From a virus: DNA of 64,000 bases. Shown in pieces: positions 39,470 to 62,346 of this stretch (position 1 is the first letter of the stretch; every line of letters begins with the position of its first letter). The DNA is taken from the IMG/VR virus record IMGVR_UViG_3300042558_003617, positions 8,457-72,456 of that record. The stretch is one strand, 5' to 3'. The translations under genes were made by a program, and so were the position numbers. The notes beneath the pieces are model-generated. The model worked only from the letters and a program-made list of their open reading frames with translations, did no database searches and was not told where the DNA came from.

Positions 39470-39472
39470 ATA

Positions 39473-39687: not shown

Positions 39688-39695
39688 GTCATTTG

Positions 39696-39773
39696 TGGCT
39701 GAGGATCTAGGATTCGAACCTAGGAATGCCGGAATCAAAATCCGGTGCCTTGGACCAACTTGGCGAATCCCCA
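39696..39773 (-). tRNA. tRNA-Gln(TTG)
   Basis: CCGGA-TTTTGAT-TCCGG. Confidence 0.92.
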
Positions 39774-39779
39774 ACAAAA

Positions 39780-40214: not shown

Positions 40215-40292
40215 AATATCCTTATATATCTATTTTTGTATTACAATAACATTAAACTCAGCATGGGCTCGGCTACAGCATAAGTATTCTTG

Positions 40293-40724
40293 ATGCTAAT
40301 TTCCCTAACAATCAATCCCACCCAAGTTTGTCAAGACATCAAAATTGATGTATCCTTAAATGGTCATTTGTTGTCTACCTTGGTTTGTGACCAAAAATGG
40401 ACTTTTGAACATGAACTTGATGAAAGTGATATTTCACAAGACCATGTGTTAACTGTGACCATGCATGGCAAAAATCAAACGCACACAGTGGTTGACAGCA
40501 ACAACCTCATAGTCTCGGACTGCACAGTACTCGTTGAACATATAACATTTGATGGCATAGATATTACTGATCTCTATGCAAAAGGTAAAAAATGCTACAC
40601 TCACGATTTCAACGGAACACAGCCTGAGTTTACAGACGAATTCTACGGAATCATGGGCTGCAACGGCACAGTAACAATTGATTTTTATACTCCAATTCAC
40701 ATTTGGTTATTGGAGAATTGTTAA
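40293..40724 (+). CDS. Hypothetical protein
   Basis: TAAGTA motif 6 nt upstream; TAATG-coupled to radical SAM gene. Confidence 0.7.
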   Translation: MLISLTINPTQVCQDIKIDVSLNGHLLSTLVCDQKWTFEHELDESDISQDHVLTVTMHGKNQTHTVVDSNNLIVSDCTVLVEHITFDGIDITDLYAKGKKCYTHDFNGTQPEFTDEFYGIMGCNGTVTIDFYTPIHIWLLENC

Positions 40725-41701
40725 TGATTGTTGCTGAACAAGTGACCGGAGTTGTAGTAGAAGCTACATCGCATTGCAATTTGCATTGCCCACAGTGTCC
40801 TAGATACGATCAGGAAGGATTCTTAAACAAGTTTCTAGTGCCTGACCATTTGGACTTTGAAGCATTTGAACAAAACTTTGTACTGTCTCAGTTGCCAAAC
40901 CTCAAACACATTGTGTTTGAAGGCGACTACGGTGATATCATGATGCATCCACGTGCCGAAAGCTTTTTTAGGCACTGCTCAAGTGTGGAGTCAATTGTTG
41001 CATACACCAACGGTAGCATGCGATCCACAACCTGGTGGGCAAATCTTGCAACCATTCCCAACTTGACAGTTGTTTTTTCAATTGACGGATTAGCTGACAC
41101 CAATGCAACATACAGAATCAATGCTGATTTTGATAAAATCATGCGCAACGCCCGGGCATACATCAATGCAGGCGGTCGTGCCACGTGGAAATTTCTTGTG
41201 TTCAAACACAATCAGCACCAAGTGGCGCAAGCACAAGAACTTGCCGCTAGCATGGGGTTTGCTGATTTTCAAACACAATCAACCAATAGAAACTTTTGGG
41301 ATAATCCAATTTGGCCGGTAAAGATCAACGGTGAGTACTCACACGATATTGAAATGAGTGACACAGCTGATTCTACTCGTACCAAGGATTATATTGTGGC
41401 GCTTGACAAAGTCAAACAACAACAATTTACCAAACCATCTTGTTCCTGGATCAACAGTGGTAGAATTTACATAAACCACAAAGGGCATGTGATTCCTTGT
41501 TGCATGACCAGTGGCTTGTCTTGGCAACGCGATATATCTGCACAGTTGTGGCAGCGCATTATACAGCATGTGGATTCAATTGATATCAATCAGCACAACA
41601 TTGCTGACATATTAACAAGTGACTTCTTTGTGCATAATCTAGCAACATCGCTGTCCAGCGCCAAGACAGTACATCCAACCTGTTTGTCTCAATGTTCATA
41701 A
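40724..41701 (+). CDS. Radical SAM protein with C-terminal SPASM/twitch domain
   Basis: CNLHCPQC, YTNGS, FSIDG, C-terminal C..GHVIPCC...C..QC. Confidence 0.88.
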   Translation: MIVAEQVTGVVVEATSHCNLHCPQCPRYDQEGFLNKFLVPDHLDFEAFEQNFVLSQLPNLKHIVFEGDYGDIMMHPRAESFFRHCSSVESIVAYTNGSMRSTTWWANLATIPNLTVVFSIDGLADTNATYRINADFDKIMRNARAYINAGGRATWKFLVFKHNQHQVAQAQELAASMGFADFQTQSTNRNFWDNPIWPVKINGEYSHDIEMSDTADSTRTKDYIVALDKVKQQQFTKPSCSWINSGRIYINHKGHVIPCCMTSGLSWQRDISAQLWQRIIQHVDSIDINQHNIADILTSDFFVHNLATSLSSAKTVHPTCLSQCS

Positions 41702-41776
41702 TGGCCCGGCGTAGAGGAATCGAACCCCTATAATGACTTTAGAAGAATCATGTCCTATCCGTTGAACGAACGCCGG
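41702..41776 (-). tRNA. tRNA-Arg(TCT)
   Basis: Loop CTTCTAA. Confidence 0.9.
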
Positions 41777-41782
41777 AGTATT

Positions 41783-41858
41783 TGGTCTCCCTACAAGGAT
41801 TCGAACCTTGACCACACGGCCCCAAACCGTGTACGCAACCAGATAACGCTTTAGAGAG
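41783..41858 (-). tRNA. tRNA-Pro(TGG)
   Basis: CACGG-TTTGGGG-CCGTG. Confidence 0.88.
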
Positions 41859-41865
41859 ATAAACT

Positions 41866-41940
41866 TGGTGGAGACCGTCGGTATCGAACCGATCTAGACA
41901 CGAATCTTGCAAGGATCCGCCGTAGCCCTCTACTGCCCCC
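41866..41940 (-). tRNA. tRNA-Ala(TGC), atypical short D-arm
   Basis: G3:U70, loop CTTGCAA, D-arm GTAG-AGGG-CTAC. Confidence 0.75.
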
Positions 41941-42026
41941 ATTATAGAAACACACTTAAACAGTCCTTCAACGTTAGTCGCTATCTCCCTTACTATCGGG
42001 CGGATCTGTATGTGTTTCTATAATGG
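41939..42026 (-). ncRNA. Spacer stem-loop element (family member)
   Basis: CCATTATAGAAACACA/TGTGTTTCTATAATGG perfect 16-bp closing stem. Confidence 0.6.
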
Positions 42027-42102
42027 CTCCGCATCTGGGTAACGATCCCAGCTAATCATTGATTAACAGTCAAGCCCATGCACCATGCTCGGGTTCTGCG
42101 GA
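42024..42102 (-). tRNA. tRNA-Asn(GTT), atypical
   Basis: Loop CTGTTAA; T-loop ATCGTTA. Confidence 0.8.
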
Positions 42103-42111
42103 ATAAAATTT

Positions 42112-42201
42112 TGGCGGAACGACTCGGACTCGAACCGAGAACCCGGATTACGCCGAGCGACAGATTAGCAATCTGCTCTAATACCATTATAGGACCGTTC
42201 C
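42112..42201 (-). tRNA. tRNA-Ser(GCT)
   Basis: Loop TTGCTAA, long variable arm, G73. Confidence 0.92.
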
Positions 42202-42214
42202 AAAACTTACAAAA

Positions 42215-42289
42215 TGGCTGGCCTTGAGAGGATCGAACTCCCACCCCTTGTTTCGAAGACAAGGATGATATCCATTTCACCAAAGGCCA
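42215..42289 (-). tRNA. tRNA-Arg(TCG)
   Basis: CTTGT-CTTCGAA-ACAAG. Confidence 0.9.
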
Positions 42290-42294
42290 AAAAC

Positions 42295-42368
42295 TGGTGC
42301 TCTCACCAGGTAACGATCCTGGGTTGCTACATTACCAATGTAGTGTAATGCCTTTATACTATGAGAGC
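42295..42368 (-). tRNA. tRNA-Thr(GGT)
   Basis: CTACA-TTGGTAA-TGTAG; T-loop ATCGTTA. Confidence 0.88.
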
Positions 42369-42376
42369 AATAAAAC

Positions 42377-42450
42377 TGGTGCGGGGTAAGAGAATCGAAC
42401 TCTTGCTTAAACGTTGGCAACGTCTGGTTCTACCATTAAACTAACCACGC
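42377..42450 (-). tRNA. tRNA-Gly(GCC)
   Basis: Loop TTGCCAA. Confidence 0.88.
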
Positions 42451-42474
42451 ATTTGCTATTTGCAAATAGCAAAT
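42451..42474. repeat. Perfect 24-bp palindrome
   Basis: ATTTGCTATTTGCAAATAGCAAAT. Confidence 0.85.
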
Positions 42475-42479
42475 AAAAT

Positions 42480-42555
42480 TGGCTCCACAGCCTGGGCTCG
42501 AACCAGGGACCAAAAGATTAACAGTCTTCTACTCTACCAACTGAGCTACTGCGGA
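42480..42555 (-). tRNA. tRNA-Asn(GTT)
   Basis: Canonical cloverleaf, loop CTGTTAA. Confidence 0.93.
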
Positions 42556-42564
42556 ATAAAAATT

Positions 42565-42641
42565 TGGAGTAGGTGACAAGGATCGAACTTGCATAAAACG
42601 GATTTGCAATCCGCGGCCTAACCATTCAGCGACACACCTAC
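42565..42641 (-). tRNA. tRNA-Cys(GCA)
   Basis: Loop TTGCAAA, U73. Confidence 0.9.
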
Positions 42642-42644
42642 ATA

Positions 42645-42863
42645 TTGCTCTGCATCCCCCGGCGGTAATTGTAGTACATCAGAAATTTGGTCAGCAAGTT
42701 TTCACTCACCAATTAGTTTTTCATCACACGTACCTTCCACCCGCTTCCCGACAGGGACCGTTATCGCATTGCTAGCGGCCTTTGGGTTCGAAGACTACCA
42801 CCCGTACTTGTCACAGTACTTCTCATCGTGTGGGTCACACTATCCGGAGACACCCGGAACGTT
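42645..42863 (-). ncRNA. Unassigned structured RNA between tRNA-Tyr and tRNA-Cys
   Basis: GC-rich, non-coding, multiple hairpins (TCCGGG/TCCGGA, GTGTG/CACAC, GTAC/GTAC, AATTGGT/ACCAAATT). Confidence 0.55.
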
Positions 42864-42864
42864 C

Positions 42865-42953
42865 TGGTGGAGATGATAGGATTCGAACCTATTGCGTTTC
42901 TTAAGTACCGGATTTACAGTCCGGGGCCACTCCACCATCGTAGCCGCATCTCC
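42865..42953 (-). tRNA. tRNA-Tyr(GTA)
   Basis: CCGGA-CTGTAAA-TCCGG, long variable arm. Confidence 0.9.
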
Positions 42954-42957
42954 AAAG

Positions 42958-43032
42958 TGGTACTGGGTACGGGAATCGAACCCGTCTTACAAACGTGAAA
43001 GGCTTGTGTCCTAACCGATAGACGAACCCAGC
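42958..43032 (-). tRNA. tRNA-Glu(TTC)
   Basis: Loop CTTTCAC. Confidence 0.9.
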
Positions 43033-43160
43033 GTAAAGAAAAACCCTGAAGTAGTCCAGTCAAGCAACCAAACAGGGCCGTGTTAAAAAGAGAAACTGCT
43101 GTTGCAGGACCTAGTGCCTCAATGAGGGAAGTATCCAGGCGATGCAGTTTCAAAAATGAA

Positions 43161-43370
43161 TTTGAGAGTAGTGCCACCCTGTTATAGGCACCATTCACCC
43201 GATTTAACAAGTCCGGACGGGGTTCGGTACGTCACTTGGGATTCATCCAGCGTGGTAACCATGCTACACCGATCTTCCGATCAGCCGGGAGTCGAACCCG
43301 CTTGCCTTCTATTACTCAGTACCTTCGAAGAATACTGCATAACGTGACTTCACTTGCTGACACTCTCAAA
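43161..43370 (-). ncRNA. Unassigned ~210-nt structured RNA with embedded T-arm
   Basis: TTTGAGAGT/ACTCTCAAA closing stem, GTCAC/GTGAC helix, CGGG-TTCGACT-CCCG. Confidence 0.6.
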
Positions 43371-43373
43371 ACT

Positions 43374-43449
43374 TGGCGGTCTTAGGGGGTAACGATCCCC
43401 ACTCTTACGGCGTGACAAGCCGTCGTGCGTCCATGAACACTTTAAGACC
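43374..43449 (-). tRNA. tRNA-Asp(GTC)
   Basis: ACGGC-TTGTCAC-GCCGT; T-loop ATCGTTA. Confidence 0.88.
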
Positions 43450-43451
43450 AA

Positions 43452-43669
43452 CTATATTAAAAAATACTAAAGGAACCATTGTGCATCTATGTCTACCTAT
43501 ACGACCGTCTCGTATAGGCCTGCACGGTCATTACTGCCTACATGCTCCGCCGCTTTTCTGAGCATTACTGCTCGGCTTCATGAACTCTGACTATTGAGCG
43601 TGGGCGGCCCCACTGTCCTCGCACAAAGTTCCTAACGGTGTAGGTAACCTTTAATACATTTTAATATAG
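43452..43669 (-). ncRNA. Unassigned ~220-nt structured RNA in long AT-rich closing stem
   Basis: CTATATTAAAA..TAAAGG/CCTTTA..TTTTAATATAG; internal GAGCA-GTAA-TGCTC, CCTATACGA/TCGTATAGG, CCTACA/TGTAGG. Confidence 0.6.
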
Positions 43670-43702
43670 CAACCCTTGCGGGTTACTACAAGAAAACTCG
43701 AC

Positions 43703-43735
43703 TTTTTAAAGAACATCTAGTTAATTTCTAACTAG
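43703..43735 (-). promoter_or_regulatory. rrn-like boxB hairpin plus boxA antitermination site
   Basis: CTAGTTA-GAAAT-TAACTAG then TGTTCTTTAAAAA at the very start of the transcript. Confidence 0.65.
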
Positions 43736-43740
43736 TCTCT

Positions 43741-43866
43741 AGTATAACACGATGTGCAATACCAGTCAATCTGTTTTGCAAAGTCCCTACAACTTCTAGG
43801 GTTTTTGCAACATCAGTTAATTTCTTAACTTGTTTCTATTGTAGCAAAAATACGTTTACCGGTCAA
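43741..43866 (-). promoter_or_regulatory. Tandem sigma70-type promoters of main tRNA array
   Basis: TTGACC-17-TACAAT (43866-43838) and TTGACT-17-TATACT (43769-43741). Confidence 0.75.
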
Positions 43867-43922
43867 GTGAATTTTTGTTGTATTTTCACAACACTACCGG
43901 GGCCGCCCCTATAAGTATAGGC

Positions 43923-44810
43923 ATGACCAATCAAATACAACTTTCGACCAAGCACGGTCAGGTCCTGGTCGAACTACTTGACACTGAGTTTGTTCACTTC
44001 TGGAAAACTCATTATGATCAAATGGTTGATTGTTACAGCCTAACACCTAGACACGTGCCCTGGCCCAATTATCAGCCCTGCAGCCACGAAACTGTTGACA
44101 CACTAATTGATCGCATTTTGAACGTGATCAAAACAATTAACTCCAGCAGTTACCTATGCCCGTTACCGGAAATTGTAACCAAAGATCAATTGAGTAGATT
44201 GGATTTGAGCACACAACAATTGCTCAATCGATTACACAGATATGCAGTAGTAGCTACAGAATTTGGAAATCGATGGCATCACAACGGGCAGGAAGAATTT
44301 AACCCTGTACCCTATACCAACGATGAATTCATGTACAACATCAATGTGTTAAATCAAAGCATTCATTACCTTGAAGAATATGTAATAACACCACACAAAC
44401 AAGAATTCTTGCGACAAGTACAAACAGTAGAGTTTGTTTTTGAGTCATCTAAATACCAAGATGTTGACGTTTTTCTAGATGGATCAGCTGTTGCAATCCC
44501 TGACGAAATGCAACAGCATCTCAGATTGTCGGGGTATGATGTGTGGATCAAAAAAGATCTACTGGGAAAAGACTTTATAACTGCATTTGCAGATCATGAT
44601 GACCCTGCACAATTTGACATACGTCCACCGCCTACAATCAGTGGCGGTATCGCAATTGATCTTGACCAAGGTAGGGACAACCTATTTGACAGTCCTTTAT
44701 TTGCTGCCTGGCTCGGACAATCTCCCAATGATACACATGGTAGCTATCCATTGGGCAAAGTCATTTCTGGTAAAGAAAACTTATTAAAATTCAGCAGACG
44801 TTTCTGGTAG
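43923..44810 (+). CDS. Hypothetical protein (paralogue of 14207..15295)
   Basis: Start at MTNQ, TAAGTA 5 nt upstream; LNRLHRY, LNQSIHYLE. Confidence 0.7.
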   Translation: MTNQIQLSTKHGQVLVELLDTEFVHFWKTHYDQMVDCYSLTPRHVPWPNYQPCSHETVDTLIDRILNVIKTINSSSYLCPLPEIVTKDQLSRLDLSTQQLLNRLHRYAVVATEFGNRWHHNGQEEFNPVPYTNDEFMYNINVLNQSIHYLEEYVITPHKQEFLRQVQTVEFVFESSKYQDVDVFLDGSAVAIPDEMQQHLRLSGYDVWIKKDLLGKDFITAFADHDDPAQFDIRPPPTISGGIAIDLDQGRDNLFDSPLFAAWLGQSPNDTHGSYPLGKVISGKENLLKFSRRFW

Positions 44811-44878
44811 CTCCACCGGGTAACGATCCCAGGACTGCCGGTTATCAGCCGACTGTTATTCCATTTAACTACAGAGCT
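44805..44878 (-). tRNA. tRNA-Ile(GAT)
   Basis: GTCGG-CTGATAA-CCGGC; T-loop ATCGTTA. Confidence 0.88.
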
Positions 44879-44886
44879 ATTCAATT

Positions 44887-44960
44887 TGGCACGGGTACTA
44901 GGGCTCGAACCTAGAATGACAGAGTCAAAGTCTGTAGTGTTACCATTACACTATACCCGA
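44887..44960 (-). tRNA. tRNA-Gln(TTG)
   Basis: ACAGA-CTTTGAC-TCTGT. Confidence 0.9.
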
Positions 44961-44967
44961 ACAATCT

Positions 44968-45059
44968 TGGCGGAAAGCAGAGGAGTCGAACCCCATCCCA
45001 TTTCTGAGAACCTGGTTTTCAAGGCCAGTCGCAGGACCATCCCCGCTGCATTACTTTCC
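44968..45059 (-). tRNA. tRNA-Ser(TGA), likely 8/4 cloverleaf
   Basis: Loop CTTGAAA; GGAAAGTA/TGCTTTCC 8-bp acceptor, GGGG/CCTC 4-bp T-stem, long variable arm, G73. Confidence 0.85.
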
Positions 45060-45068
45060 ATTAACTAT

Positions 45069-45143
45069 TGGTGCCCCAGGATGGAATCGAACCACCACAC
45101 CCTGCTTACAAAACAGGACCTCTACCACTAAGGATACAAGGGC
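45069..45143 (-). tRNA. tRNA-Thr(TGT)
   Basis: Loop TTTGTAA. Confidence 0.88.
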
Positions 45144-45149
45144 AAAAAT

Positions 45150-45223
45150 TGGCGTACCCACTAGGACTCGAACCTAGACTGACGGTTTTGGAGACCGCGA
45201 TGCTGCCATTACACTATGGATAC
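45150..45223 (-). tRNA. tRNA-Trp(CCA)
   Basis: GCGGT-CTCCAAA-ACCGT. Confidence 0.92.
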
Positions 45224-45232
45224 ATTAACATA

Positions 45233-45307
45233 TGGTGGACCGTAACGGGATCGAACCGTTCCTTAAGGCTTGCAAAGCCCTCGTGCCCCCAACAACACTT
45301 ACAGCCC
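45233..45307 (-). tRNA. tRNA-Ala(TGC)
   Basis: G3:U70, loop TTTGCAA. Confidence 0.88.
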
Positions 45308-45308
45308 A

Positions 45309-45373
45309 TACATTCTAAAACACACCATCTGCGGTATTGCAACCCAGATCAGCTTGGTGTATTTTAGAATGTA
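45309..45373 (-). ncRNA. Spacer stem-loop element (family member)
   Basis: TACATTCTAAAATACACCA/TGGTGTGTTTTAGAATGTA 19-bp stem; internal GGGTTGCAATACC. Confidence 0.55.
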
Positions 45374-45374
45374 G

Positions 45375-45518
45375 TGTGTTTCCACACCACATGATAGGGT
45401 CAATACCCTACCCAGGAGTCTTACTGTCTGTGTTACCGCCACAGAGTTCATGTGTCCTGTCCGCCCGTTTGCTTGTTTTTTTGAGTGCTTTAGCGGGACC
45501 TCGTTTCCCAATAGCACT
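45375..45518 (-). ncRNA. Unassigned structured RNA after attenuator A
   Basis: AGTGCT/AGCACT, CACATGA/TCATGTG, CTGTG/CACAG, TAGGGT/ACCCTA helices; no credible ORF. Confidence 0.45.
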
Positions 45519-45523
45519 AAGTG

Positions 45524-45553
45524 AAAAACCCTGGAGTTTTTAATTCCAGGGTC
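45524..45553 (-). terminator. Conditional terminator of attenuator A
   Basis: GACCCTGGA-ATTAAAAAC-TCCAGGGTT-TTT. Confidence 0.85.
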
Positions 45554-45578
45554 TTTGAATTTGTAGATGTTAACTTAG

Positions 45579-45710
45579 TTAATCATCCCATCCTTCAATA
45601 GACCCCGGTACTCCTGGAATACTATTCACATGATCATAGCCGCGTGACCAGGCTGTTGTCGCCTGTGTCAACATGGGTTTGGATCTTGTTAAAGTATTTG
45701 TTTTCATCAT
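45579..45710 (-). CDS. Putative leader peptide A (43 aa, leaderless)
   Basis: MMKTNTLTRSKPMLTQATTAWSRGYDHVNSIPGVPGSIEGWDD; ATG 6 nt after TATAAT; 3' part complementary to terminator 5' arm. Confidence 0.75.
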   Translation of the reverse strand: MMKTNTLTRSKPMLTQATTAWSRGYDHVNSIPGVPGSIEGWDD

Positions 45711-45716
45711 GTACCT

Positions 45717-45824
45717 ATTATAGTTTATTTATGATTGCCTGTCAACCACTAAATTTATGTTTTATTTAGTCCAGTTGATTGGTATTCATTCAAGTATTAT
45801 ACAACAAAAAGCTTTCTTGGTCAA
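45717..45824 (-). promoter_or_regulatory. Two sigma70-type promoters upstream of attenuator A
   Basis: TTGACA-17-TATAAT (45745-45717) and TTGACC-17-TATAAT (45824-45796). Confidence 0.85.
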
Positions 45825-45881
45825 GGGGGTATTTTGCCAGAATCATGTAAATACAACAACACAACATAGAAATGGAAACAC

Positions 45882-46157
45882 ATGGACTTTTTAAAAATTG
45901 TTGCCGAGCTTGGCTTTCCTATTGCGGCTGCATGCGGTGCAGGCTACTTTGTGTTCCTGACCTTGAAGTTTATTCTTGCAGGCGTGACTAGCAGTGTGAA
46001 TGGCATGGGCGGAATCATCAAGGGACTGGACAGCAGAGTTGATACCATGACCAACCAATTGCAACGTATCGACGTCAAGGTTAGTCATGCACTGGGGCTA
46101 CAGCCTGACTATGATCGCATAAGCAGAGCAGAGCAAATAGATCAAAGGAAAGATTAA
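45882..46157 (+). CDS. Small membrane protein (N-terminal TM plus coiled coil)
   Basis: GFPIAAACGAGYFVF; paralogous to 46376..46732. Confidence 0.75.
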   Translation: MDFLKIVAELGFPIAAACGAGYFVFLTLKFILAGVTSSVNGMGGIIKGLDSRVDTMTNQLQRIDVKVSHALGLQPDYDRISRAEQIDQRKD

Positions 46158-55967: not shown

Positions 55968-56087
55968 TTATTCTTCCTTGATCTCAACCACATGATATTC
56001 TGACTTGGGATAATTGCCCCATAACCATTCCAACAAGTCTTGACTATACGGTAACTTGATAGATTTAAATTTGTTGGTAATATACAT
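55968..56087 (-). CDS. Small hypothetical protein (39 aa, not in ORF track)
   Basis: MYITNKFKSIKLPYSQDLLEWLWGNYPKSEYHVVEIKEE; abuts both neighbours. Confidence 0.55.
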   Translation of the reverse strand: MYITNKFKSIKLPYSQDLLEWLWGNYPKSEYHVVEIKEE

Positions 56088-56269
56088 TATTTCTCTCTGT
56101 CCAGCTGAATTAACACATCACGTTCTTGTTGGTCAATGTCACTAAGTGACTGCTCTAGAGTTTTACCAACAATGCCCACATATTGCACATTGTCATGCCA
56201 GTGTGAGTACAATGCAACTGCATCTCGCATGCCTTGATGATAGGCCTTGCACAGCAAAGCTTTGTCCAT
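56087..56269 (-). CDS. Hypothetical protein
   Basis: Start reassigned to MDKAL. Confidence 0.55.
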   Translation of the reverse strand: MDKALLCKAYHQGMRDAVALYSHWHDNVQYVGIVGKTLEQSLSDIDQQERDVLIQLDREK

Positions 56270-56270
56270 C

Positions 56271-56816
56271 TTAGTGATGACCTTTGACTTTGCCTTTGAT
56301 CGCATCGGCAATGGCATCCTCCATGGTAATAGCAATCATTCCAGTTGCATCCATGCCCATGTCGCGACATCGAAATTGTTCCATTCCACTCTCGCCACCA
56401 TGCAAGTGACCGTGCAAGTGAACAGCACCCCTGTGCATTTGGTCCCACTCAGCAATGGGGTAGTGGAACATCACAACCTTTGTTCCATTATAGTTGATGT
56501 CTAGGTACTTGTGTACTTCTAGGAAACATCTTCGGAAAGTGGGATCATTGAGTATCTTGCGATCATGGTTGCCTTCGATCAATATTTTTGTGCCATTGCA
56601 ACGATTCATGTACTCTGCTGCTTTTTGTGCAGGCAAGAAAGCCACATCGCCGAGTATGTAAACTTTATCTTCAGGTGCAATCAAGTCGTTCCATTCCTTG
56701 ATCATTGCCTCGTTCATGTAGTTTACATCATTGCGAAACCGAGCACGTGACACTGAACAAAAACTCATGATGTTGGTATGTCCAAAATGCAAATCGCTGG
56801 TTACGAATGTTTTCAT
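56271..56816 (-). CDS. Calcineurin-like metallophosphoesterase
   Basis: SDLHFGH, LGD, GNHD, HGHLH; ATG 6 nt after TTGACA-17-TATAAT (56851-56823). Confidence 0.9.
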   Translation of the reverse strand: MKTFVTSDLHFGHTNIMSFCSVSRARFRNDVNYMNEAMIKEWNDLIAPEDKVYILGDVAFLPAQKAAEYMNRCNGTKILIEGNHDRKILNDPTFRRCFLEVHKYLDINYNGTKVVMFHYPIAEWDQMHRGAVHLHGHLHGGESGMEQFRCRDMGMDATGMIAITMEDAIADAIKGKVKGHH

Positions 56817-56857
56817 AGTTGTATTATACACTTAACTGAATACTTTGTCAACAGTAT

Positions 56858-57322
56858 TCAAACATGCCAAATCTCATGAAATCCTTCTTCCAGAGTTGGC
56901 ATTTCAAAATTCCATACCATGTCATGTAACACATGTTCTGGAATGACTTTTCCAGGGCGTGTTTTTAGTCTGCGCTGGTGTTCTTGCTCATCCGGTGTTT
57001 GGAACACTATAGCAATTGCGTAATAGTCAGGCAACATGCGGAACTTGCGAGTACGACTTGCAAGAGTAGTGCTGGTCTGATCCCAGATAATATCCTTGCC
57101 TGCATCACGTGCACCATTTACGGCACCTGCCATTCTTGCAACAGCCACAGGCATGTATTCCTCAAACACTTCAGAATAGGTTTTACCAACATTCTCGGCC
57201 CACTCTTCAACATACTTATCGGTTGAAATGTACGCACAGTCTCTAAACCAGTCTTGATTTTTTGCCCAGGTGGTTTTACCCGATCCGGGTACACCAATCA
57301 ACATGTATAGTTTATTTTTCAT
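56858..57322 (-). CDS. P-loop kinase (AAA_33 / polynucleotide kinase-like)
   Basis: GVPGSGKTT, ISTD, IIWDQT. Confidence 0.85.
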   Translation of the reverse strand: MKNKLYMLIGVPGSGKTTWAKNQDWFRDCAYISTDKYVEEWAENVGKTYSEVFEEYMPVAVARMAGAVNGARDAGKDIIWDQTSTTLASRTRKFRMLPDYYAIAIVFQTPDEQEHQRRLKTRPGKVIPEHVLHDMVWNFEMPTLEEGFHEIWHV

Positions 57323-57337
57323 TTTTTTTACCAACGC

Positions 57338-57429
57338 TGGTACCTCCGCCGGGACTCGAACCCAGATGAACCAATTATCTGTTGCTTACGGGATATAAAT
57401 CCGCCGTTTTACCATTAAACTACAGAGGC
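57338..57429 (-). tRNA. tRNA-Ile(TAT)-like with extra arm
   Basis: Acceptor GCCTCTG/CGGAGGT, loop TTTATAT, 22-nt variable region containing CAA-CAGATAA-TTG. Confidence 0.75.
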
Positions 57430-57434
57430 ATTAT

Positions 57435-57510
57435 TGGTTGCGGGGCTTGGATTTGAACCAAGGATGGCAAAGGCTTATGAGACCTCGCTGGTGACCGGAC
57501 CCTCCCCGCG
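57435..57510 (-). tRNA. tRNA-fMet-like (CAT)
   Basis: C1:A72 mismatch, CGCGGGG start, T-loop TTCAAAT, loop CTCATAA; short D-arm. Confidence 0.8.
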
Positions 57511-57513
57511 ATA

Positions 57514-57650
57514 ACTTTATAGGTGCTCTCTGTTGGAATCGAACCAAACTGTTTAACTCCGTATCTTCCTGGCACTTTCGGTAGTTAGTCGACTTAGTAC
57601 CTAACTCGTGTTATCCAGTGTAGTTAAACTTCAAAGAGCATTTATAAAGT
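57514..57650 (-). ncRNA. tRNA-like RNA (acceptor stem plus T-arm with large insert)
   Basis: GCTCTTT/AGAGAGC-ACC, TTGG-TTCGATT-CCAA, GTTTAACT/AGTTAAAC helix, extended closing stem. Confidence 0.6.
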
Positions 57651-57858
57651 GTCCGGCTACTCTCACCACAAGAGCCCCGGACTGGGCTGTCTACTCCGTC
57701 TACGTATTTGTTCTTATGGTAAAGGTTAGCGTTCCTCACCCTAGGCAGTTTTCAGTATCTCCGAACAGGAGACTGTAAGGTCAGGTCCTAGTGTACCCCC
57801 TGGTCTATCGTTACAGGGACGCTATTTCGTTAACGTAGAAATAGTAAGACGGGGTCTG
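57651..57858 (-). ncRNA. Unassigned structured RNA downstream of coiled-coil gene
   Basis: ACCCCGTCT/AGACGGAGT, CTATTTC/GAAATAG, CCCTG/CAGGG, CTAGG/CCTAG, TCTCC/GGAGA, GTCCGG/CCGGAC. Confidence 0.55.
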
Positions 57859-58431
57859 TTAGATCAGGCCTTCTGCTTGTAGCACACGTTCAGATTCGGT
57901 GCTCAACTCAATTGTGGTACGCACATTGAGTTCCAGTAACTCGTCTTGTAGACGTTGCTTGGCTTTCTTGGCCAAAGTTACCACAGTTTTAAACCCATCA
58001 ATGTCACTGTTAGTCAACACAGATGTCTCAACACTCTCGCCCATGCCATACAAACTTGCACGACTGTCTTCTTTGCGATTGCGAATCTTGTCCAATTTAC
58101 CAGACAACACTTCTGTGGCCAGTCTCTCAGACTTTGACACAAACACTGTGTAGAAGTTTACTTCTTTCTCAAGTCGAGCAATTTCGGCCAACTTGCGATC
58201 AACTCCGGCAGCACTGTTGGCTTGTCCAACTGCCTGGCGAATTTGATACAATACAGTGGTCAACGCATCGCGCCGTCCAATGTTTGTTTTCAACTTGGTC
58301 ACAGCTTTGAGAACTTCTTGTTCAGCATCCTGAAATTCGTTGATGCTGATCTCGGTAGTCACATCAATATTCTTCACAGCATCATTGATGGCATTTTGCA
58401 ATGTATTGGCTTTACGTAGTGTAATATTCAT
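57859..58431 (-). CDS. All-helical coiled-coil protein (possibly DIP1984/DUF6847-like)
   Basis: MNITLRKA..LQ...IRQAVGQAN...LQDELLELNVRTTIEL; SD AAGGA; family call from memory of motif only. Confidence 0.6.
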   Translation of the reverse strand: MNITLRKANTLQNAINDAVKNIDVTTEISINEFQDAEQEVLKAVTKLKTNIGRRDALTTVLYQIRQAVGQANSAAGVDRKLAEIARLEKEVNFYTVFVSKSERLATEVLSGKLDKIRNRKEDSRASLYGMGESVETSVLTNSDIDGFKTVVTLAKKAKQRLQDELLELNVRTTIELSTESERVLQAEGLI

Positions 58432-58725
58432 TTGATTTCCTTTTCAACAACTTCACAACAAAATAAAAACAGAGTCAAGAAGGCAAGTGACAGACTGGAC
58501 AAAAAACATGGTAATTAGTTACCAAGCAAGTCACAATGCACAAAGCACAGAGACCTGCATATTCCCAGGGGCAAGACACAAAATTGTCACATCTGGAGCA
58601 TGCAAGCACGTTCAGTTGTTTAGACTGAATGCCAGAGTTGATTTCATTAACTTTGAAGGTTAATGGATGTCCGCTCTCTTCTCCCTCTCTTCTCCGGGTA
58701 GTTCGCTTGCGCTACTACCAAAACT

Positions 58726-58809
58726 TGGTGCCCCAGGGGAGACTCGAACTCCCACGCCTCTCGACACTGGCTTCTAAGACCAGCGTGTCTACCATTCCAC
58801 CACCAGGGC
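58726..58809 (-). tRNA. tRNA-Leu(TAG)
   Basis: CTGGT-CTTAGAA-GCCAG, long variable arm. Confidence 0.93.
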
Positions 58810-58830
58810 AATATCTCTTACTAAGCATGT

Positions 58831-58859
58831 ATTATAACAACAATTCTGTTATAGGTCAA
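58831..58859 (-). promoter_or_regulatory. sigma70-type promoter
   Basis: TTGACC-17-TATAAT. Confidence 0.8.
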
Positions 58860-58887
58860 TTATTCTGAGCATCAATGTAAATAATAC

Positions 58888-59079
58888 ATGTTGCCAGAAG
58901 CCGACCTAGTAGAAAAACTCTTAGCATTGCAGATGAAGCAAATGCATAAATTTGATTCAGTCAAGGATCTCATGATCTACCAACGCGGTTTTTTGACCGG
59001 ATTGCTAAGCCAGTTGGCCCATGATGACACTTATGTTAAACAAGTAATCATTCATCGAATCAAATGTCTTGAAAAATAA
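58888..59079 (+). CDS. Small hypothetical protein
   Basis: 63 aa, TAAATA 4 nt upstream. Confidence 0.6.
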   Translation: MLPEADLVEKLLALQMKQMHKFDSVKDLMIYQRGFLTGLLSQLAHDDTYVKQVIIHRIKCLEK

Positions 59080-59080
59080 T

Positions 59081-59156
59081 TGGTGCAACCTCCAGGGATC
59101 GAACCTGGTTCAATGGCTCTTCAGACCACCGCTATGACCACATCAGCTAAAGTTGC
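59081..59156 (-). tRNA. tRNA-Phe(GAA)
   Basis: GTGGT-CTGAAGA-GCCAT. Confidence 0.9.
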
Positions 59157-59161
59157 ATGTT

Positions 59162-59236
59162 TGGAGTCGCATACGGGTTACGATCCCGTCTGGTCACCTT
59201 GAAAGGGTGATGACCTCACCAGAAGTCTAATGCGAC
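59162..59236 (-). tRNA. tRNA-Glu(TTC)
   Basis: TCACC-CTTTCAA-GGTGA; T-loop ATCGTAA. Confidence 0.88.
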
Positions 59237-59240
59237 ATAT

Positions 59241-59313
59241 CCATATAGAAACACACTAGCATAGTACCTAATGCTAACGGGCCCCGGTGGGGGTCTAGTA
59301 TGTTTTTATATGG
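59241..59313 (-). ncRNA. Spacer stem-loop element (family member)
   Basis: CCATATAAAAACATACTAG/CTAGTGTGTTTCTATATGG; two internal hairpins. Confidence 0.6.
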
Positions 59314-59400
59314 TGGGACAGGAGGGATTCGAACCCCCAACGGTTCCTAAGTAACGGATTTACAGTCCGCCGCGACACTAACCATATTCGCCTCTGGCCC
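59311..59400 (-). tRNA. tRNA-Tyr(GTA)
   Basis: GCGGA-CTGTAAA-TCCGT, long variable arm. Confidence 0.88.
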
Positions 59401-59420
59401 ATATATGTTGAGACCTTCTC

Positions 59421-59684
59421 TCAACTGCCAATTTTACTGCCTACGTTTTCGCCGTAAGTGTCATCCTGGACTCCGCCCATTTGGAACTTTTTATTGTGGG
59501 TTCCAAGCTCGCGTTGCTTTTTGATACCACTGTGCTGATCGTCAAACTTTTTGTGAGCTATGTAAAAATTTTGTGCCCTTTGAAACTTATTGGCAAGCAA
59601 TTCTTTAAATGTTGTCGGGCATAATGTATTGCCCTGCTCTTCAATCCTCTGACGGAGTTTTTGCTCTCGTATGTCTAAATCCAT
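59421..59684 (-). CDS. Hypothetical protein inside attenuated unit B
   Basis: 87 aa, SD AGGGA. Confidence 0.6.
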   Translation of the reverse strand: MDLDIREQKLRQRIEEQGNTLCPTTFKELLANKFQRAQNFYIAHKKFDDQHSGIKKQRELGTHNKKFQMGGVQDDTYGENVGSKIGS

Positions 59685-59700
59685 TTTTCCCTTTATAAAA

Positions 59701-59731
59701 CAAAAAACCCTGGATGTTTAAGTCCAGGGTT
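59701..59731 (-). terminator. Conditional terminator of attenuator B
   Basis: AACCCTGGA-CTTAAACA-TCCAGGGTT-TTTTG. Confidence 0.87.
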
Positions 59732-59759
59732 CTAAAAATGTGTAGTACACAGATATTAT

Positions 59760-59882
59760 TTAGAAATCCCTGAAATCATGATACTCAAATGCAAACTCAT
59801 AGAGTGAGCTCAACAGATGTGCGCATGGCACGCCTGATGTGCGTTCTAGTTTTGCAGGTATCAATGATGTTGTTCTTTGCAT
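59760..59882 (-). CDS. Putative leader peptide B (40 aa)
   Basis: MQRTTSLIPAKLERTSGVPCAHLLSSLYEFAFEYHDFRDF; ATG 10 nt after TATAAT; 3' end complementary to terminator 5' arm. Confidence 0.75.
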   Translation of the reverse strand: MQRTTSLIPAKLERTSGVPCAHLLSSLYEFAFEYHDFRDF

Positions 59883-59892
59883 GATAGTATCT

Positions 59893-59921
59893 ATTATATA
59901 CGTTTATTTATACCTTGTCAA
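59893..59921 (-). promoter_or_regulatory. sigma70 consensus promoter (with embedded TATAAATA)
   Basis: TTGACA-AGGTATAAATAAACGTA-TATAAT. Confidence 0.88.
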
Positions 59922-59978
59922 CCTTAATTTCTTAAGAAAGACAAGATTTTTTGCCAGAAAGTTTTTAACACTTCCTGT

Positions 59979-61894
<1,916 letters not shown>

Positions 61895-61992
61895 TTTTGC
61901 TCTCTCCTTTAAGTTTAAAATAAGCAAGAAAGTTTGCGTAATCCCGGTATGGGCCTTACGCAAACAATATTTATAGTGCCGATATCATGTGC

Positions 61993-62346
61993 TCAAGATT
62001 TTTTGGCAGTTGAATCGTTTTCTAGACACAGCAATCTCATGACCTCAAACTTTTCCCATGCGTCTTTGAGACCCGGGTGCGTTTCCATCAAAGTTCTGAT
62101 CCTTGAGTCTTCGTTACGCTTTTCTCGTGCCCAGTCTAGCAGTGCTTCGGCTTCGCTAGTAAGTCCAACTGATGTATGGCTAGAAGTTTCTTTCCAGCAG
62201 GCACCATCATACACTTCCATGTTATTGGTGTTGGTATTCCATCTGATCATGCCAGCTCCTACAGCACCGGGACTGAAGTAAACTCCCACGCCATGACCGC
62301 CGGATACCGATATGTATCTTCCTGTTGGAGTTATTTGCTTGATCAT
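61993..62346 (-). CDS. Hypothetical protein
   Basis: 117 aa, ATGA-coupled. Confidence 0.7.
   Translation of the reverse strand: MIKQITPTGRYISVSGGHGVGVYFSPGAVGAGMIRWNTNTNNMEVYDGACWKETSSHTSVGLTSEAEALLDWAREKRNEDSRIRTLMETHPGLKDAWEKFEVMRLLCLENDSTAKKS

What the first reader, a model, noticed from the sequence alone, without database searches (positions are those of the whole stretch)
59081..59921. Attenuator B: Tyr/Glu/Phe-rich leader gates tRNA-Tyr, tRNA-Glu and tRNA-Phe
Seen (minus strand): TTGACA-17-TATAAT, then a 40-codon ORF whose last 13 residues are YEFAFEYHDFRDF (8 of 13 are Y/E/F, against one E and no Y or F in the first 27). Next come a terminator with the same ACCCTGGA/TCCAGGGT stem as attenuator A, an 87-aa ORF, and exactly tRNA-Tyr, -Glu, -Phe before the next promoter. 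TTCAGGG-AT-TTCTAAA spanning the last codons and stop pairs 14 bp with TTTAGAA-CCCTGGA (terminator 5' arm). A ribosome at the stop codon would mask the antiterminator, while one stalled at YEFAF would not. Two similar modules with different leaders, each matching its own tRNA set, make coincidence less likely. Inference: a modular tRNA-depletion sensor that triggers tRNA replacement, plausibly anti-defence against anticodon nucleases or starvation.
Basis: partly seen in the sequence, partly recalled or inferred. Interest (0 to 1): 0.93.

Follow-up and report, generated by a model that had tools for sequence, protein, structure and literature searches.

The report
Leader-peptide attenuator before phage tRNA genes
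A giant lake phage places a tiny translated gene wired to a stop/go RNA switch in front of three of its tRNA genes, so it probably makes them mainly when ribosomes lag, a control I could not find in print for tRNA genes.

Summary
Module B (minus strand 59921-59702) holds a consensus promoter, a near-leaderless 40-codon sORF, an antiterminator over the last codons and the stop, and an intrinsic terminator. ORF87, a structured RNA and tRNA-Tyr/Glu/Phe follow.

It is a divergent, so far unique member of a large family. I extracted 91 unique modules from IMG/VR contigs.
- 92 of 94 promoter-terminator intervals keep the sORF, against 8.1 in shuffles.
- 55 of 61 modules have a tRNA within 1 kb, against 5 of 60 control terminators.
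- The antiterminator co-varies with each module's own terminator flank.
- Modelling puts the switch 6-13 codons before the stop. In B it falls right after YEFAFEY.

So a ribosome-coupled transcription attenuator is well supported. Codon/tRNA matching is striking in this phage (B p about 0.002, A about 0.003). Across the family it is modest: some tests are positive, others null. There is no expression evidence.

This scan found the same family before on other DNA. I found no published account.

The parts
59893..59921 (-). Sigma-70-type promoter: -35 TTGACA 59921-59916, 17-nt spacer, -10 TATAAT 59898-59893
   Evidence: 12 of 12 consensus positions.
59905..59912 (-). TATAAATA motif inside the promoter spacer (family hallmark TAAATA/TAAGTA)
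   Evidence: Read. The motif is in 80 of 91 module promoters, against 17 of 193 other consensus promoters on the same strands. The likeness to the T4 late promoter is recalled, not tested.
59760..59882 (-). Leader sORF, 40 codons plus TAA. The ATG lies 10 nt after the -10 box (near-leaderless, no SD)
   Evidence: The family keeps such an ORF in 92 of 94 intervals, against 8.1 +/- 2.3 in shuffles. The ATG lies 6-10 nt after the -10 box in 85 of 92.
59781..59801 (-). Codons 28-34, TAT GAG TTT GCA TTT GAG TAT (YEFAFEY), the candidate regulatory codons
   Evidence: With the A site on codons 28-32 the terminator 5' arm stays paired upstream (P >= 0.9). At codon 33 P is 0.8 and at codon 34 it is 0.3. 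Best-window match to the downstream tRNA set has p 0.0017.
59759..59774 (-). Antiterminator 5' strand TTCAGGG-AT-TTCTAAA, over codons 37-40 and the stop codon
59723..59736 (-). Antiterminator 3' strand TTTAGAACCCTGGA, which is the terminator 5' arm plus its flank
   Evidence: Family-wide co-variation of this flank with the leader 3' end.
59702..59733 (-). Intrinsic terminator: AGAACCCTGGA, loop CTTAAACA, TCCAGGGTTTT plus T run
   Evidence: Equilibrium P(terminator) is 0.99.
59421..59684 (-). ORF87 with SD AAAGGGAAAAATG. Its first ~55 residues belong to a family of ~50-60-aa helical proteins that follow these modules. The C-terminal ~30 residues overlap the structured RNA
   Evidence: Alignment A2 has K33 and R36 invariant. 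AlphaFold2 gives helices 3-18 and 23-65, pLDDT 91-98 for residues 21-50 and about 50 from residue 61 on. No Pfam, PHROG or PDB match.
59401..59530 (-). Structured non-coding RNA element (approximate ends): hairpin with AACGCGAGC loop, AAATGGGCGGA, GGCGAAAAC, AGTAAAA, closing hairpin just before tRNA-Tyr
   Evidence: The core motif lies within 330 nt downstream in 67 of 80 modules, against 0.08 of random windows. No Rfam hit at E <= 1.
59311..59400 (-). tRNA-Tyr (GTA)
59162..59236 (-). tRNA-Glu (TTC)
59081..59156 (-). tRNA-Phe (GAA)
58831..58859 (-). Next consensus promoter (TTGACC-17-TATAAT). It drives tRNA-Leu(tag) directly and marks the end of the gated block
45528..45745 (-). Paralogous module A: promoter 45745-45717, leaderless 43-codon sORF 45710-45579, terminator 45552-45528. 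A structured RNA and tRNA-Ala/Trp/Thr/(Ser)/Gln/Ile follow

Best explanation
Module B is a ribosome-coupled (leader-peptide) transcription attenuator at the head of a small phage tRNA operon.

Proposed course of events:
1. Host RNA polymerase starts at the consensus promoter.
2. The 5'-proximal AUG is taken by a ribosome, as on a leaderless mRNA.
3. If that ribosome keeps pace and reaches the last codons or the stop while polymerase transcribes the terminator, it covers the strand UUCAGGGAUUUCUAAA. The terminator hairpin then forms and transcription ends at 59707-59702.
4. If the ribosome lags, stalls upstream, or is absent, that strand pairs first with UUUAGAACCCUGGA. The terminator 5' arm is sequestered and polymerase reads on into ORF87, a structured RNA and tRNA-Tyr, -Glu and -Phe.

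The result would be a feedback loop in which phage tRNA output rises when translation is slow. In B the seven codons just before the switch are Tyr/Glu/Phe (6 of 7). B is therefore likely most sensitive to exactly the tRNAs it controls. I rate that codon-specific tuning at about even odds.

Shown: the anatomy; conservation of the sORF; co-variation of the antiterminator; the association with tRNA arrays.
Inferred: translation of the sORF; kinetic competition of the two hairpins; the physiological signal.
For: Anatomy.

Family: 91 unique modules came from three IMG/VR scans.

sORF:
- It is kept in 92 of 94 promoter-terminator intervals, against 8.1 +/- 2.3 (max 12) in 50 shuffles.
- The ATG lies 6-10 nt after the -10 box in 85 of 92.
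- 3 of the 6 long-5'UTR variants have AAGGAA or AGGA at SD distance.
- A real gene of at least 181 aa in this phage (ATG 56816) also starts 6 nt after a -10 box.
- Sequence constraint on the peptide is weak, as expected of a leader. Differences by codon position are 0.31/0.33/0.37. The synonymous share is 0.47, against 0.22 expected.

Antiterminator:
- A leader's own 3' end against its own terminator arm gives -16.25 kcal/mol. Cross-cluster pairs give -12.88 (cluster-level permutation z -7.3) and shuffled leaders -9.22.
- 81 of 91 modules have a GGG:CCC-anchored gapless helix, with 9.56 of 12 pairs against 7.25 for foreign arms.
- At flank positions -2 and -3, C-G occurs in 8 clusters and T-A in 7, which is compensatory.

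Footprint modelling:
- The terminator 5' arm is pre-paired upstream (P 0.66-1.0) unless the A site is in the last ~6-13 codons.
- With a ribosome at the stop codon the terminator forms in 91 of 91 modules.
- With the A site 15 codons before the stop, the terminator is disfavoured in 65% of modules even at equilibrium.

Context: 55 of 61 modules have a same-strand tRNA within 1 kb and 46 of 46 within 2 kb. The figure is 5 of 60 for same-stem terminators without a module.

Codon tuning:
- B p 0.0017 and A p 0.0027.
- Family permutation without the discovery clusters: p 0.0003-0.02.
- The signal lies only in codons -16..-5 before the switch (p 0.0007, 14 clusters). It is absent at -28..-17 (p 0.75) and at 0..+8 (p 0.40).
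Against: - No expression, termination or ribosome data. The RNA runs held only contigs of tRNAs and other conserved RNAs of relatives.
- B has a ~3-nt 5'UTR and no SD, so the efficiency of initiation is unknown.
- In B the terminator is favoured at equilibrium whatever the ribosome position (P 0.99). Read-through therefore needs kinetic trapping.
- No 'protector' (1:2) structure that would force termination without translation was shown. The model predicts read-through when no ribosome loads, unlike trp.
- B is a singleton, with no orthologue found behind related GroEL genes, by protein search or in earlier notes.
- Family-wide codon matching is small in size, 0.16-0.24 observed against 0.13-0.17 expected.
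- It shows no Ser or Gly anticodon-box specificity.
- It is not significant in the random-set test (Fisher p 0.29 and 0.13).
- My clusters are still distant homologues, so the permutation p-values are optimistic.
- 11 of 68 modules have a consensus promoter between the terminator and the first tRNA, so gating is not exclusive everywhere.
Confidence: 0.75

Rival explanations
1. Strictly codon-specific, modular tRNA-shortage sensor. Only shortage of charged tRNA-Tyr, -Glu or -Phe opens B, for instance after anticodon-nuclease attack. Only shortage of A's own tRNAs opens A.
For: - B has 6 of 7 codons just before the switch cognate to exactly the three gated tRNAs, p 0.0017.
- In A all eight residues of TQATTAWS lie in its set, p 0.0027.
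- The family-wide match is concentrated in codons -16..-5 before the switch.
Against: - Most family members match poorly. Clusters 8 and 13 are examples.
- There is no anticodon-level specificity.
- Leaders are unusually diverse in amino acids, 18.4 against 16.1 distinct residues, t 8.2 over 18 clusters.
- The model lets a stall at any of the first ~32 codons open B.
- The two G000 modules were picked because they match.
Confidence: 0.3
2. Origin- or time-dependent gate rather than a metabolic sensor. Only transcripts that begin at the module promoter carry a 5'-terminal AUG, are translated and terminate. Transcripts arriving from the upstream groES-groEL unit, or from a late-type start at the TATAAATA motif in the spacer, leave the sORF untranslated and read through.
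For: - No terminator-like site was reported between the groEL stop (59979) and the module.
- The model predicts antitermination without a ribosome in many modules. Free RNA has P(terminator) < 0.5 in 41%.
- The spacer motif TAAATA/TAAGTA is in 80 of 91 module promoters, against 17 of 193 others.
Against: - For B itself the free RNA favours the terminator (0.99).
- That this phage uses T4-type late promoters is recalled analogy and was not tested.
- Synteny with groEL is not conserved.
Confidence: 0.12
3. The sORF is an ordinary small early protein gene with its own promoter and terminator. The tRNAs are made by leakage or from other promoters, and there is no switch.
For: - The ORF is conserved.
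- Some purifying selection is seen, with a synonymous share of 0.47 against 0.22.
- 11 of 68 modules have another promoter before the tRNAs.
Against: - A co-varying antiterminator over the stop codon has no role in this reading.
- The peptide sequence is poorly conserved, with codon-position differences 0.31/0.33/0.37.
- B's peptide has no homologue.
- There is no strong promoter between the B terminator and tRNA-Tyr.
Confidence: 0.06
4. A non-coding cis-regulatory RNA (riboswitch-like, T-box-like or protein-bound) whose ORF is incidental.
For: The 3' half of the leader is constrained at the RNA level.
Against: - The ORF is kept in 92 of 94 intervals, against about 8 by chance.
- The start lies at a fixed distance from the -10 box, or behind an SD.
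- No Rfam family matches, T-box included, at E <= 1.
Confidence: 0.04

Closest known systems
Leader-peptide transcription attenuators of amino-acid operons (trpL, hisL, pheL, leuL; multivalent thrL and ilv leaders). Textbook knowledge, recalled
   Same: - A promoter-proximal short translated ORF.
- An intrinsic terminator before the regulated genes.
- A mutually exclusive antiterminator placed so that a ribosome at the end of the ORF masks it.
- In B, a run of codons cognate to the regulated product just upstream. Mixed Tyr/Glu/Phe codons recall the multivalent thr and ilv leaders.
   Different: - The regulated genes are tRNA genes (plus a small protein and a structured RNA) of a phage, not biosynthetic enzymes.
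- The leader is leaderless or near-leaderless.
- No 1:2 protector hairpin was shown, so an untranslated transcript is predicted to read through in many members.
- Leaders are long (30-55 codons) and amino-acid diverse.
- There is no sequence or Rfam relationship.
Long tRNA array (trn operon) of Anabaena sp. PCC 7120, silent unless translation is stressed. Repressed by the RHH protein TrcR (PMC8421152: search listing, abstract start and 'find' passages; PMC10272220: abstract and outline)
   Same: An accessory tRNA gene array whose expression is coupled to translational stress.
   Different: - Control there is by a protein repressor of transcription initiation (PMC10272220 abstract).
- The words attenuat-, leader and terminator do not occur in the main text of PMC8421152.
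- That array is cellular and on a megaplasmid, not in a phage.
- Supplements of both papers were not seen.
Ribosome-stalling attenuators that sense translation inhibitors (erm/cat-type leaders and similar). Recalled
   Same: A slowed ribosome on a leader ORF remodels the RNA and switches on downstream genes. This is a general gauge of translation rather than of one amino acid.
   Different: Those respond to drug-bound ribosomes through specific arrest peptides, and many act on translation rather than termination. No arrest motif was tested here.
T-box riboswitches
   Same: They sense the tRNA charging state and choose between terminator and antiterminator.
   Different: T-boxes bind tRNA directly and need no ORF. 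Here the ORF is conserved and no T-box match was found.
The same module family noted earlier in this scan in other giant freshwater phage genomes (e1-5784040, e1-5848287, e1-6004529, e1-5714366, e1-5714381)
   Same: - Leaderless sORF.
- CCCTGG/CCAGGG terminator and antiterminator over the stop.
- A structured RNA and then tRNA arrays.
- Module A shares 4-6 of 79 words with those windows.
   Different: B shares no words with any earlier window. It lacks the mid-leader Trp codon of nearly all other members, and it has the most skewed codon run.

Membership tests
Ribosome-mediated (leader-peptide) transcription attenuator, as a mechanism class | Short ORF directly behind the promoter that is translated | tested here: inconclusive
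   The ORF is present and conserved in 92 of 94 family intervals, against 8.1 in shuffles. An SD is present in 3 of 6 long-UTR variants. Translation itself was not observable.
Ribosome-mediated (leader-peptide) transcription attenuator, as a mechanism class | Intrinsic terminator between the leader ORF and the regulated genes | tested here: met
   The hairpin has 11 pairs and a T run, at 59733-59702. ORF87 starts 18 nt after the T run.
Ribosome-mediated (leader-peptide) transcription attenuator, as a mechanism class | Alternative antiterminator pairing that excludes the terminator | tested here: met
   For B the duplex is -14.7 kcal/mol, against -6.8 +/- 2.1 in shuffles, and it is in the truncated-transcript MFE. 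Across the family, own against foreign arms gives z -7.3, with compensatory C-G/T-A at flank positions -2 and -3.
Ribosome-mediated (leader-peptide) transcription attenuator, as a mechanism class | Stop codon placed so that a terminating ribosome masks the antiterminator, while a ribosome stalled upstream does not | tested here: met
   The strand 59774-59759 includes the stop codon 59762-59760. The modelled switch lies at codon 33/34. The family median start of the strand is 13 nt before the end of the stop codon.
Ribosome-mediated (leader-peptide) transcription attenuator, as a mechanism class | Regulatory codons cognate to what the operon supplies | tested here: inconclusive
   B meets it, with 6 of 7 codons and p 0.0017. 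Across the family the result is mixed: positive, null (box specificity; Fisher p 0.13-0.29).
Ribosome-mediated (leader-peptide) transcription attenuator, as a mechanism class | Protector (1:2) pairing that gives termination when the leader is not translated | tested here: inconclusive
   Free-RNA equilibrium P(terminator) is below 0.5 in 41% of modules. In B the terminator wins at equilibrium anyway. No conserved 1:2 helix was demonstrated.
Rfam leader families and T-box | Match to a curated covariance model | tested here: not met
   cmscan at E <= 1 over 56000-62000 and 35000-46000 returned only tRNA-type and weak unrelated hits.
Giant-freshwater-phage tRNA-array leader module (family defined here and in earlier scan notes) | Consensus promoter with TAAATA/TAAGTA in the spacer, and ATG 6-10 nt after the -10 box | tested here: met
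   B has TATAAATA at 59912-59905 and its ATG at +10. The family figures are 80 of 91 and 85 of 92.
Giant-freshwater-phage tRNA-array leader module (family defined here and in earlier scan notes) | CCCTGG...CCAGGG terminator preceded by an sORF whose 3' end pairs with the terminator arm | tested here: met
Giant-freshwater-phage tRNA-array leader module (family defined here and in earlier scan notes) | Followed by the small helical protein, the structured RNA or both, then same-strand tRNAs | tested here: met
   ORF87 aligns with 38 family proteins. The RNA core motif is present.
Giant-freshwater-phage tRNA-array leader module (family defined here and in earlier scan notes) | Recognisable peptide likeness, including the mid-leader Trp codon | tested here: not met
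   B has no Trp. It forms its own cluster 18. No protein homologue was found.

The most novel reading that the evidence does not exclude
Each tRNA block of these giant phages is wired to its own codon-matched 'test gene'. Loss of just those tRNAs, for example by a host anticodon nuclease or by a mismatch between phage codon use and the host tRNA pool, would selectively switch on the matching replacement tRNAs. In this reading B is a Tyr/Glu/Phe sensor and A an Ala/Trp/Thr/Ser/Gln/Ile sensor. That would be a modular, self-correcting tRNA supply system, and the first attenuation control of tRNA genes.
Probability: 0.3. Interest if true: 0.92.

Novelty: new variant of a known kind. Interest (0 to 1): 0.8.

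Why it matters
tRNA genes are thought to be controlled at initiation (growth rate, stringent response) or, in the one accessory array studied, by a repressor (PMC10272220 abstract). A ribosome-coupled attenuator in front of tRNA genes would be a new use of a classic mechanism.

It would explain how phages with dozens of tRNA genes dose them. It would also give a direct, testable link between the state of host translation and phage tRNA output, which bears on the debate over codon compensation versus counter-defence (PMC10264068, abstract start seen).

The family is large (91 unique modules here) and carries natural compensatory variation. Reporter tests of B in a laboratory strain are straightforward. 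B is the cleanest natural case for asking whether such leaders are codon-specific.

Six literature searches found no description of it. Each searched only the terms listed in that call, within the held library.

Tried and rejected
Searches for relatives and known families:
- Rfam at E <= 1 gave nothing for the leaders or for the RNA behind them.
- Cultured-phage records had no relative of the B region or of module A. Only tRNA pieces matched.
- groEL relatives in 'phages' are at most 68% identical.
- ORF87 as a single query in viral contigs gave 7 pattern hits, none confirmed.
- Synteny through groEL returned 80 loci. Among the 55 non-redundant downstream stretches examined, none has a module or a tRNA block right after groEL.
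- A protein search with the 40-aa B leader found no candidate sharing words. Only proteins of 22-70 aa were searched.

RNA evidence:
- 4 RNA runs were laid, all kept as contigs.
- They cover tRNA genes and 57676-57863, with loose ends unlike this phage, so they come from relatives.
- The leader had next to no cover (depth 0-3.7).
- This says nothing for or against expression.

Codon and tRNA tests that came out negative or weak:
- Ser and Gly codon boxes do not follow the anticodon present downstream.
- The random-set test combined over 16 clusters gave Fisher p 0.29 (window) and 0.13 (total).
- My first positional table used an unbalanced expectation. Searches replaced it.

Structure and alignment:
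- The MAFFT alignment A1 shifts register in the GGGTC block. I did not run column-wise pair counts and used an anchored gapless helix instead.
- The small protein has no Pfam, PHROG or PDB sequence match.
- Its AlphaFold2 model is a plain helical hairpin. I ran no fold search, because such hairpins match unspecifically.
- The idea that it is an RHH repressor like TrcR is not supported by the model, which has no strand.

Rows left out:
- L001 and L002 were dropped as copies of the window.
- Modules with under 700 nt downstream, or with no tRNA within 1 kb, were dropped from the matching tests (67 of 91 used).
- I added one tRNA-Ser(TGA) to A's set by hand, from the Rfam hit and my own reading of the anticodon loop.
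Full report
**Observation.**
- The promoter is a perfect TTGACA-17-TATAAT (59921-59893; 12 of 12).
- An ATG follows 10 nt later, with no Shine-Dalgarno sequence.
- The 40-codon ORF is 59882-59760 and ends in YEFAFEYHDFRDF.
- The intrinsic terminator is AGAACCCTGGA / TCCAGGGTTTT plus a T run (59733-59702; 11 pairs).
- ORF87 is at 59684-59421.
- tRNA-Tyr, -Glu and -Phe lie at 59400-59081.
- Another consensus promoter at 58859 drives tRNA-Leu directly.
- The stem ACCCTGGA...TCCAGGGT occurs twice in the window (B, and A at 45552-45528), against 0.00 expected.
- The window is 64 kb of a 72-kb IMG/VR virus fragment rated 21% complete, so this is a giant phage.
- DNA of it is held by 14 lake-water runs at 74-94% of sampled words.

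**A family, not a coincidence.** Many of those lie behind structural genes, so the stem itself is a clade-typical terminator. Scans that also required a promoter 125-186 nt upstream gave 35 and 71 stretches. From 205 held records I extracted 91 unique promoter / sORF / terminator modules.
- Of 94 unique promoter-terminator intervals, 92 carry an ORF of at least 25 codons. It starts just after the -10 box and stops at most 45 nt before the terminator.
- Fifty shuffles gave 8.1 +/- 2.3 such ORFs (max 12). The two exceptions are false promoters inside a structural gene.
- The ATG is 6-10 nt after the -10 box in 85 of 92, so these mRNAs are leaderless or nearly so.
- Of the six long-5'UTR variants, three have AAGGAA or AGGA at SD distance.
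- This phage also has a gene of at least 181 aa (ATG 56816, MKTFVTSDLHFGH...) starting 6 nt after a -10 box, so leaderless starts seem to be in use.
- Peptide sequences diverge freely. Differences by codon position are 0.31/0.33/0.37, and the synonymous share is 0.47 against 0.22 expected. That fits a leader whose translation matters more than its product.

**What lies behind the modules.**
- 55 of 61 modules with at least 1 kb downstream have a same-strand tRNA within 1 kb. 46 of 46 with at least 2 kb have one within 2 kb.
- The figure is 5 of 60 for same-stem terminators without a module.
- Between terminator and tRNAs there is often a ~50-60-aa protein (39 distinct ones aligned, A2). ORF87 is a member: K33 and R36 are invariant, and its last ~30 residues are an extension.
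- The AlphaFold2 model of ORF87 is a helical hairpin, confident only in the shared part.
- No Pfam, PHROG or PDB sequence match was found.
- A structured RNA follows, with a hairpin carrying an AACGAGG loop and a core AAACGGGCGGA. The core motif is within 330 nt in 67 of 80 modules, against 0.08 of random windows.
- In B this RNA sits at about 59530-59401, under the end of ORF87. Rfam has no match.
- In 11 of 68 modules a further consensus promoter precedes the first tRNA. In B none does.

**The switch.** The 3' end of each sORF is complementary to the 5' arm of its own terminator and to the bases before that arm.
- Duplex energies of own pairs average -16.25 kcal/mol. Leaders paired with terminator arms of other clusters average -12.88 (cluster-level permutation z -7.3). 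Shuffled leaders average -9.22.
- Anchoring on GGG:CCC, 81 of 91 modules form a gapless helix with 9.56 of 12 pairs, against 7.25 with foreign arms.
- At the two flank positions next to the core, C-G is seen in 8 clusters and T-A in 7. That is compensatory change (also visible in alignment A1).
- The 5' strand of this helix begins a median 13 nt before the end of the stop codon.
- I folded only the RNA 3' of a 29-nt ribosome footprint, with the transcript cut before the terminator's 3' arm. The terminator 5' arm is pre-paired (P 0.66-1.0) for any A-site position up to 6-13 codons before the stop, and released beyond that.
- On the complete hairpin at equilibrium, a ribosome at the stop gives the terminator in 91 of 91 modules. 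With the A site 15 codons earlier the terminator is disfavoured in 65%. In free RNA it is disfavoured in 41%.

**The switch in B.**
- It appears in the MFE of the truncated transcript, extended by UUUGAGU pairing with the terminator loop.
- The pre-pairing probability is at least 0.9 with the A site on codons 1-32. It is 0.8 at E33 and 0.3 at Y34.
- YEFAFEY is therefore the last stretch where a stall still leaves the antiterminator free.
- The weak point is that B's terminator wins at equilibrium in all states (P 0.99). The antiterminator can only act by forming first, as I recall is also the case for trp.

**Does the leader spell its tRNAs?**

In this phage, yes.
- B's best 8-residue window has 7 residues from {Y,E,F,L}, p 0.0017.
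- A's TQATTAWS has 8 of 8, p 0.0027 (random sets weighted by tRNA frequency).
- These two modules were picked because they match, so the rest of the family is the real test.

Results in favour:
- Permuting tRNA sets among one representative per leader cluster, with the two discovery clusters left out, gives z 3.4, p 0.0003 (23 clusters). Coarser clustering gives p 0.0095 (14 clusters) and p 0.02 (9 clusters). An earlier hand clustering gave p 0.02 with 8 clusters.
- At codon level with strict wobble, p is 0.007.
- The excess is confined to codons -16..-5 before the modelled switch: ratio about 1.5, z 3.2, p 0.0007 with 14 clusters. It is weaker for -12..-1 (p 0.03). It is absent at -28..-17 (p 0.75) and at 0..+8 (p 0.40). 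I chose the best window.

Results against:
- The effect is small, about 0.16-0.24 observed against 0.13-0.17 expected.
- Ser and Gly codon boxes do not track the anticodon present.
- Per-module p-values combined over 16 clusters are not significant, Fisher 0.29 and 0.13.
- Whole clusters match poorly, for example clusters 8 and 13.
- All clusters are distant homologues, so the permutation p-values are optimistic.
- The nearly universal mid-leader Trp codon is part of a CCAGG...CCUGG hairpin in A-type leaders. This is my own reading of the sequences printed. The codon is present whether or not tRNA-Trp follows.
- Leaders use more kinds of amino acid than random windows of this phage's proteins: 18.4 against 16.1, per-cluster difference 2.1, t 8.2, n 18. 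That suits a gauge of translation in general.

**Reading.** The best-supported mechanism is a ribosome-coupled attenuator. Termination requires a ribosome that keeps up to the end of the sORF, and any lag lets the antiterminator form and opens the tRNA block. I put this at about 0.75. I put at about even odds the idea that the codons before the switch are tuned to the gated tRNAs, so that B reports mainly on Tyr/Glu/Phe. I put at about 0.3 the idea that B is a strictly specific sensor with an anti-defence role.

A variant worth testing is that only transcripts born at the module promoter are translated and terminated. Read-in from groES-groEL, which has no terminator-like site of its own, would pass. 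So would transcripts from a late-type start at the spacer motif TATAAATA. That motif class is in 80 of 91 module promoters against 17 of 193 others.

**Comparison with what is known.** By mechanism this is the trp/his/thr type of attenuation (recalled). It is not related to those leaders by sequence, and it differs in three ways: the target is tRNA genes, the start is leaderless, and no protector hairpin was shown.

The nearest thing in print that I found is the accessory trn array of Anabaena.
- It is induced by translational stress (PMC8421152; the main text has no occurrence of attenuat-, leader or terminator).
- It is repressed by the RHH protein TrcR (PMC10272220, abstract).

Six searches gave no account of leader-peptide control of tRNA genes. 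Supplements were closed.

Earlier notes of this scan describe the same family in other giant freshwater phages, and analogous modules in other phage groups. My results agree with theirs on the switch. They are more reserved than some of them on codon matching. B itself has no look-alike in those notes, in related groEL loci or among predicted proteins.

**Limits.** Everything on function is comparative or modelled. The RNA runs were uninformative for the leader. The tRNA sets were defined by distance (1 kb), not by mapped transcripts. ARAGORN at 90% thresholds may miss or add genes.

Noticed in passing
window 45310-45520 (-) and about 59401-59530 (-); loci: A conserved structured RNA sits between the attenuator (or the small protein gene) and the first tRNA. 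It has a hairpin with an AACGAGG loop, then AAACGGGCGGA, GGCG.UAAC and AGUAAGAC, then long A/U-rich closing stems with variable inserts. It has no Rfam match and its function is unknown. The core motif is in 67 of 80 modules, against 0.08 of random windows.
   Followed up: partly
window 59421-59684 (-); alignment A2: A family of ~50-60-aa helical-hairpin proteins (motif L-T-x-E-Q-x3-L-I-x2-K-x2-R-A) lies directly behind the terminator in at least 39 distinct cases. No Pfam, PHROG or PDB sequence match was found. ORF87 is a member with a disordered extension.
   Followed up: partly
window 59905-59912 (-), 45729-45736 region (-); module promoters in loci: Module promoters carry TAAATA/TAAGTA in the spacer: 80 of 91, against 17 of 193 other consensus promoters. 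In B the motif reads TATAAATA, which I recall as the T4 late-promoter motif. It could be a second promoter or an operator.
   Followed up: partly
window 56816 (-), promoter 56851-56823: A gene of at least 181 aa (MKTFVTSDLHFGH..., which looks like a metallophosphoesterase by eye) starts 6 nt after a perfect -10 box. It is therefore probably expressed from a leaderless mRNA.
   Followed up: partly
window 44972-45059 (-): A tRNA-Ser(UGA)-like gene that ARAGORN misses even at 90% thresholds. Rfam reports it only as a sub-threshold tRNA-Sec-type hit (34.7 bits).
   Followed up: partly
window 57676-57863 (-): The stretch between ORF190 and tRNA-Met is very deeply covered in contigs of RNA-library runs (up to about 1600 in X17). 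The contigs belong to relatives. No Rfam match. It may be another abundant phage RNA.
   Followed up: no
loci such as L006, L023, L028, L034: The same ACCCTGGA/TCCAGGGT terminator follows genes for Ala/Thr-rich proteins whose 3'-terminal ORF segments begin MYQV... in many contigs, with different loops. The stem is a clade-wide strong terminator and is not specific to the attenuators.
   Followed up: no
window 59979-62000 (-): A phage groES-groEL pair lies directly upstream of module B. No terminator-like site lies between the groEL stop and the module promoter. groEL relatives in 55 non-redundant loci are not followed by tRNA blocks.
   Followed up: partly
window 42865-43032 and 59162-59400 (-): The Tyr(GTA)-Glu(TTC) tRNA pair occurs twice in the window. 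Tyr-Glu adjacency also recurs at the start of arrays in several related contigs.
   Followed up: no
window 58888-59079 (+): A 63-aa ORF on the opposite strand lies between tRNA-Phe and the next promoter. Read-through past tRNA-Phe would be antisense to it.
   Followed up: no
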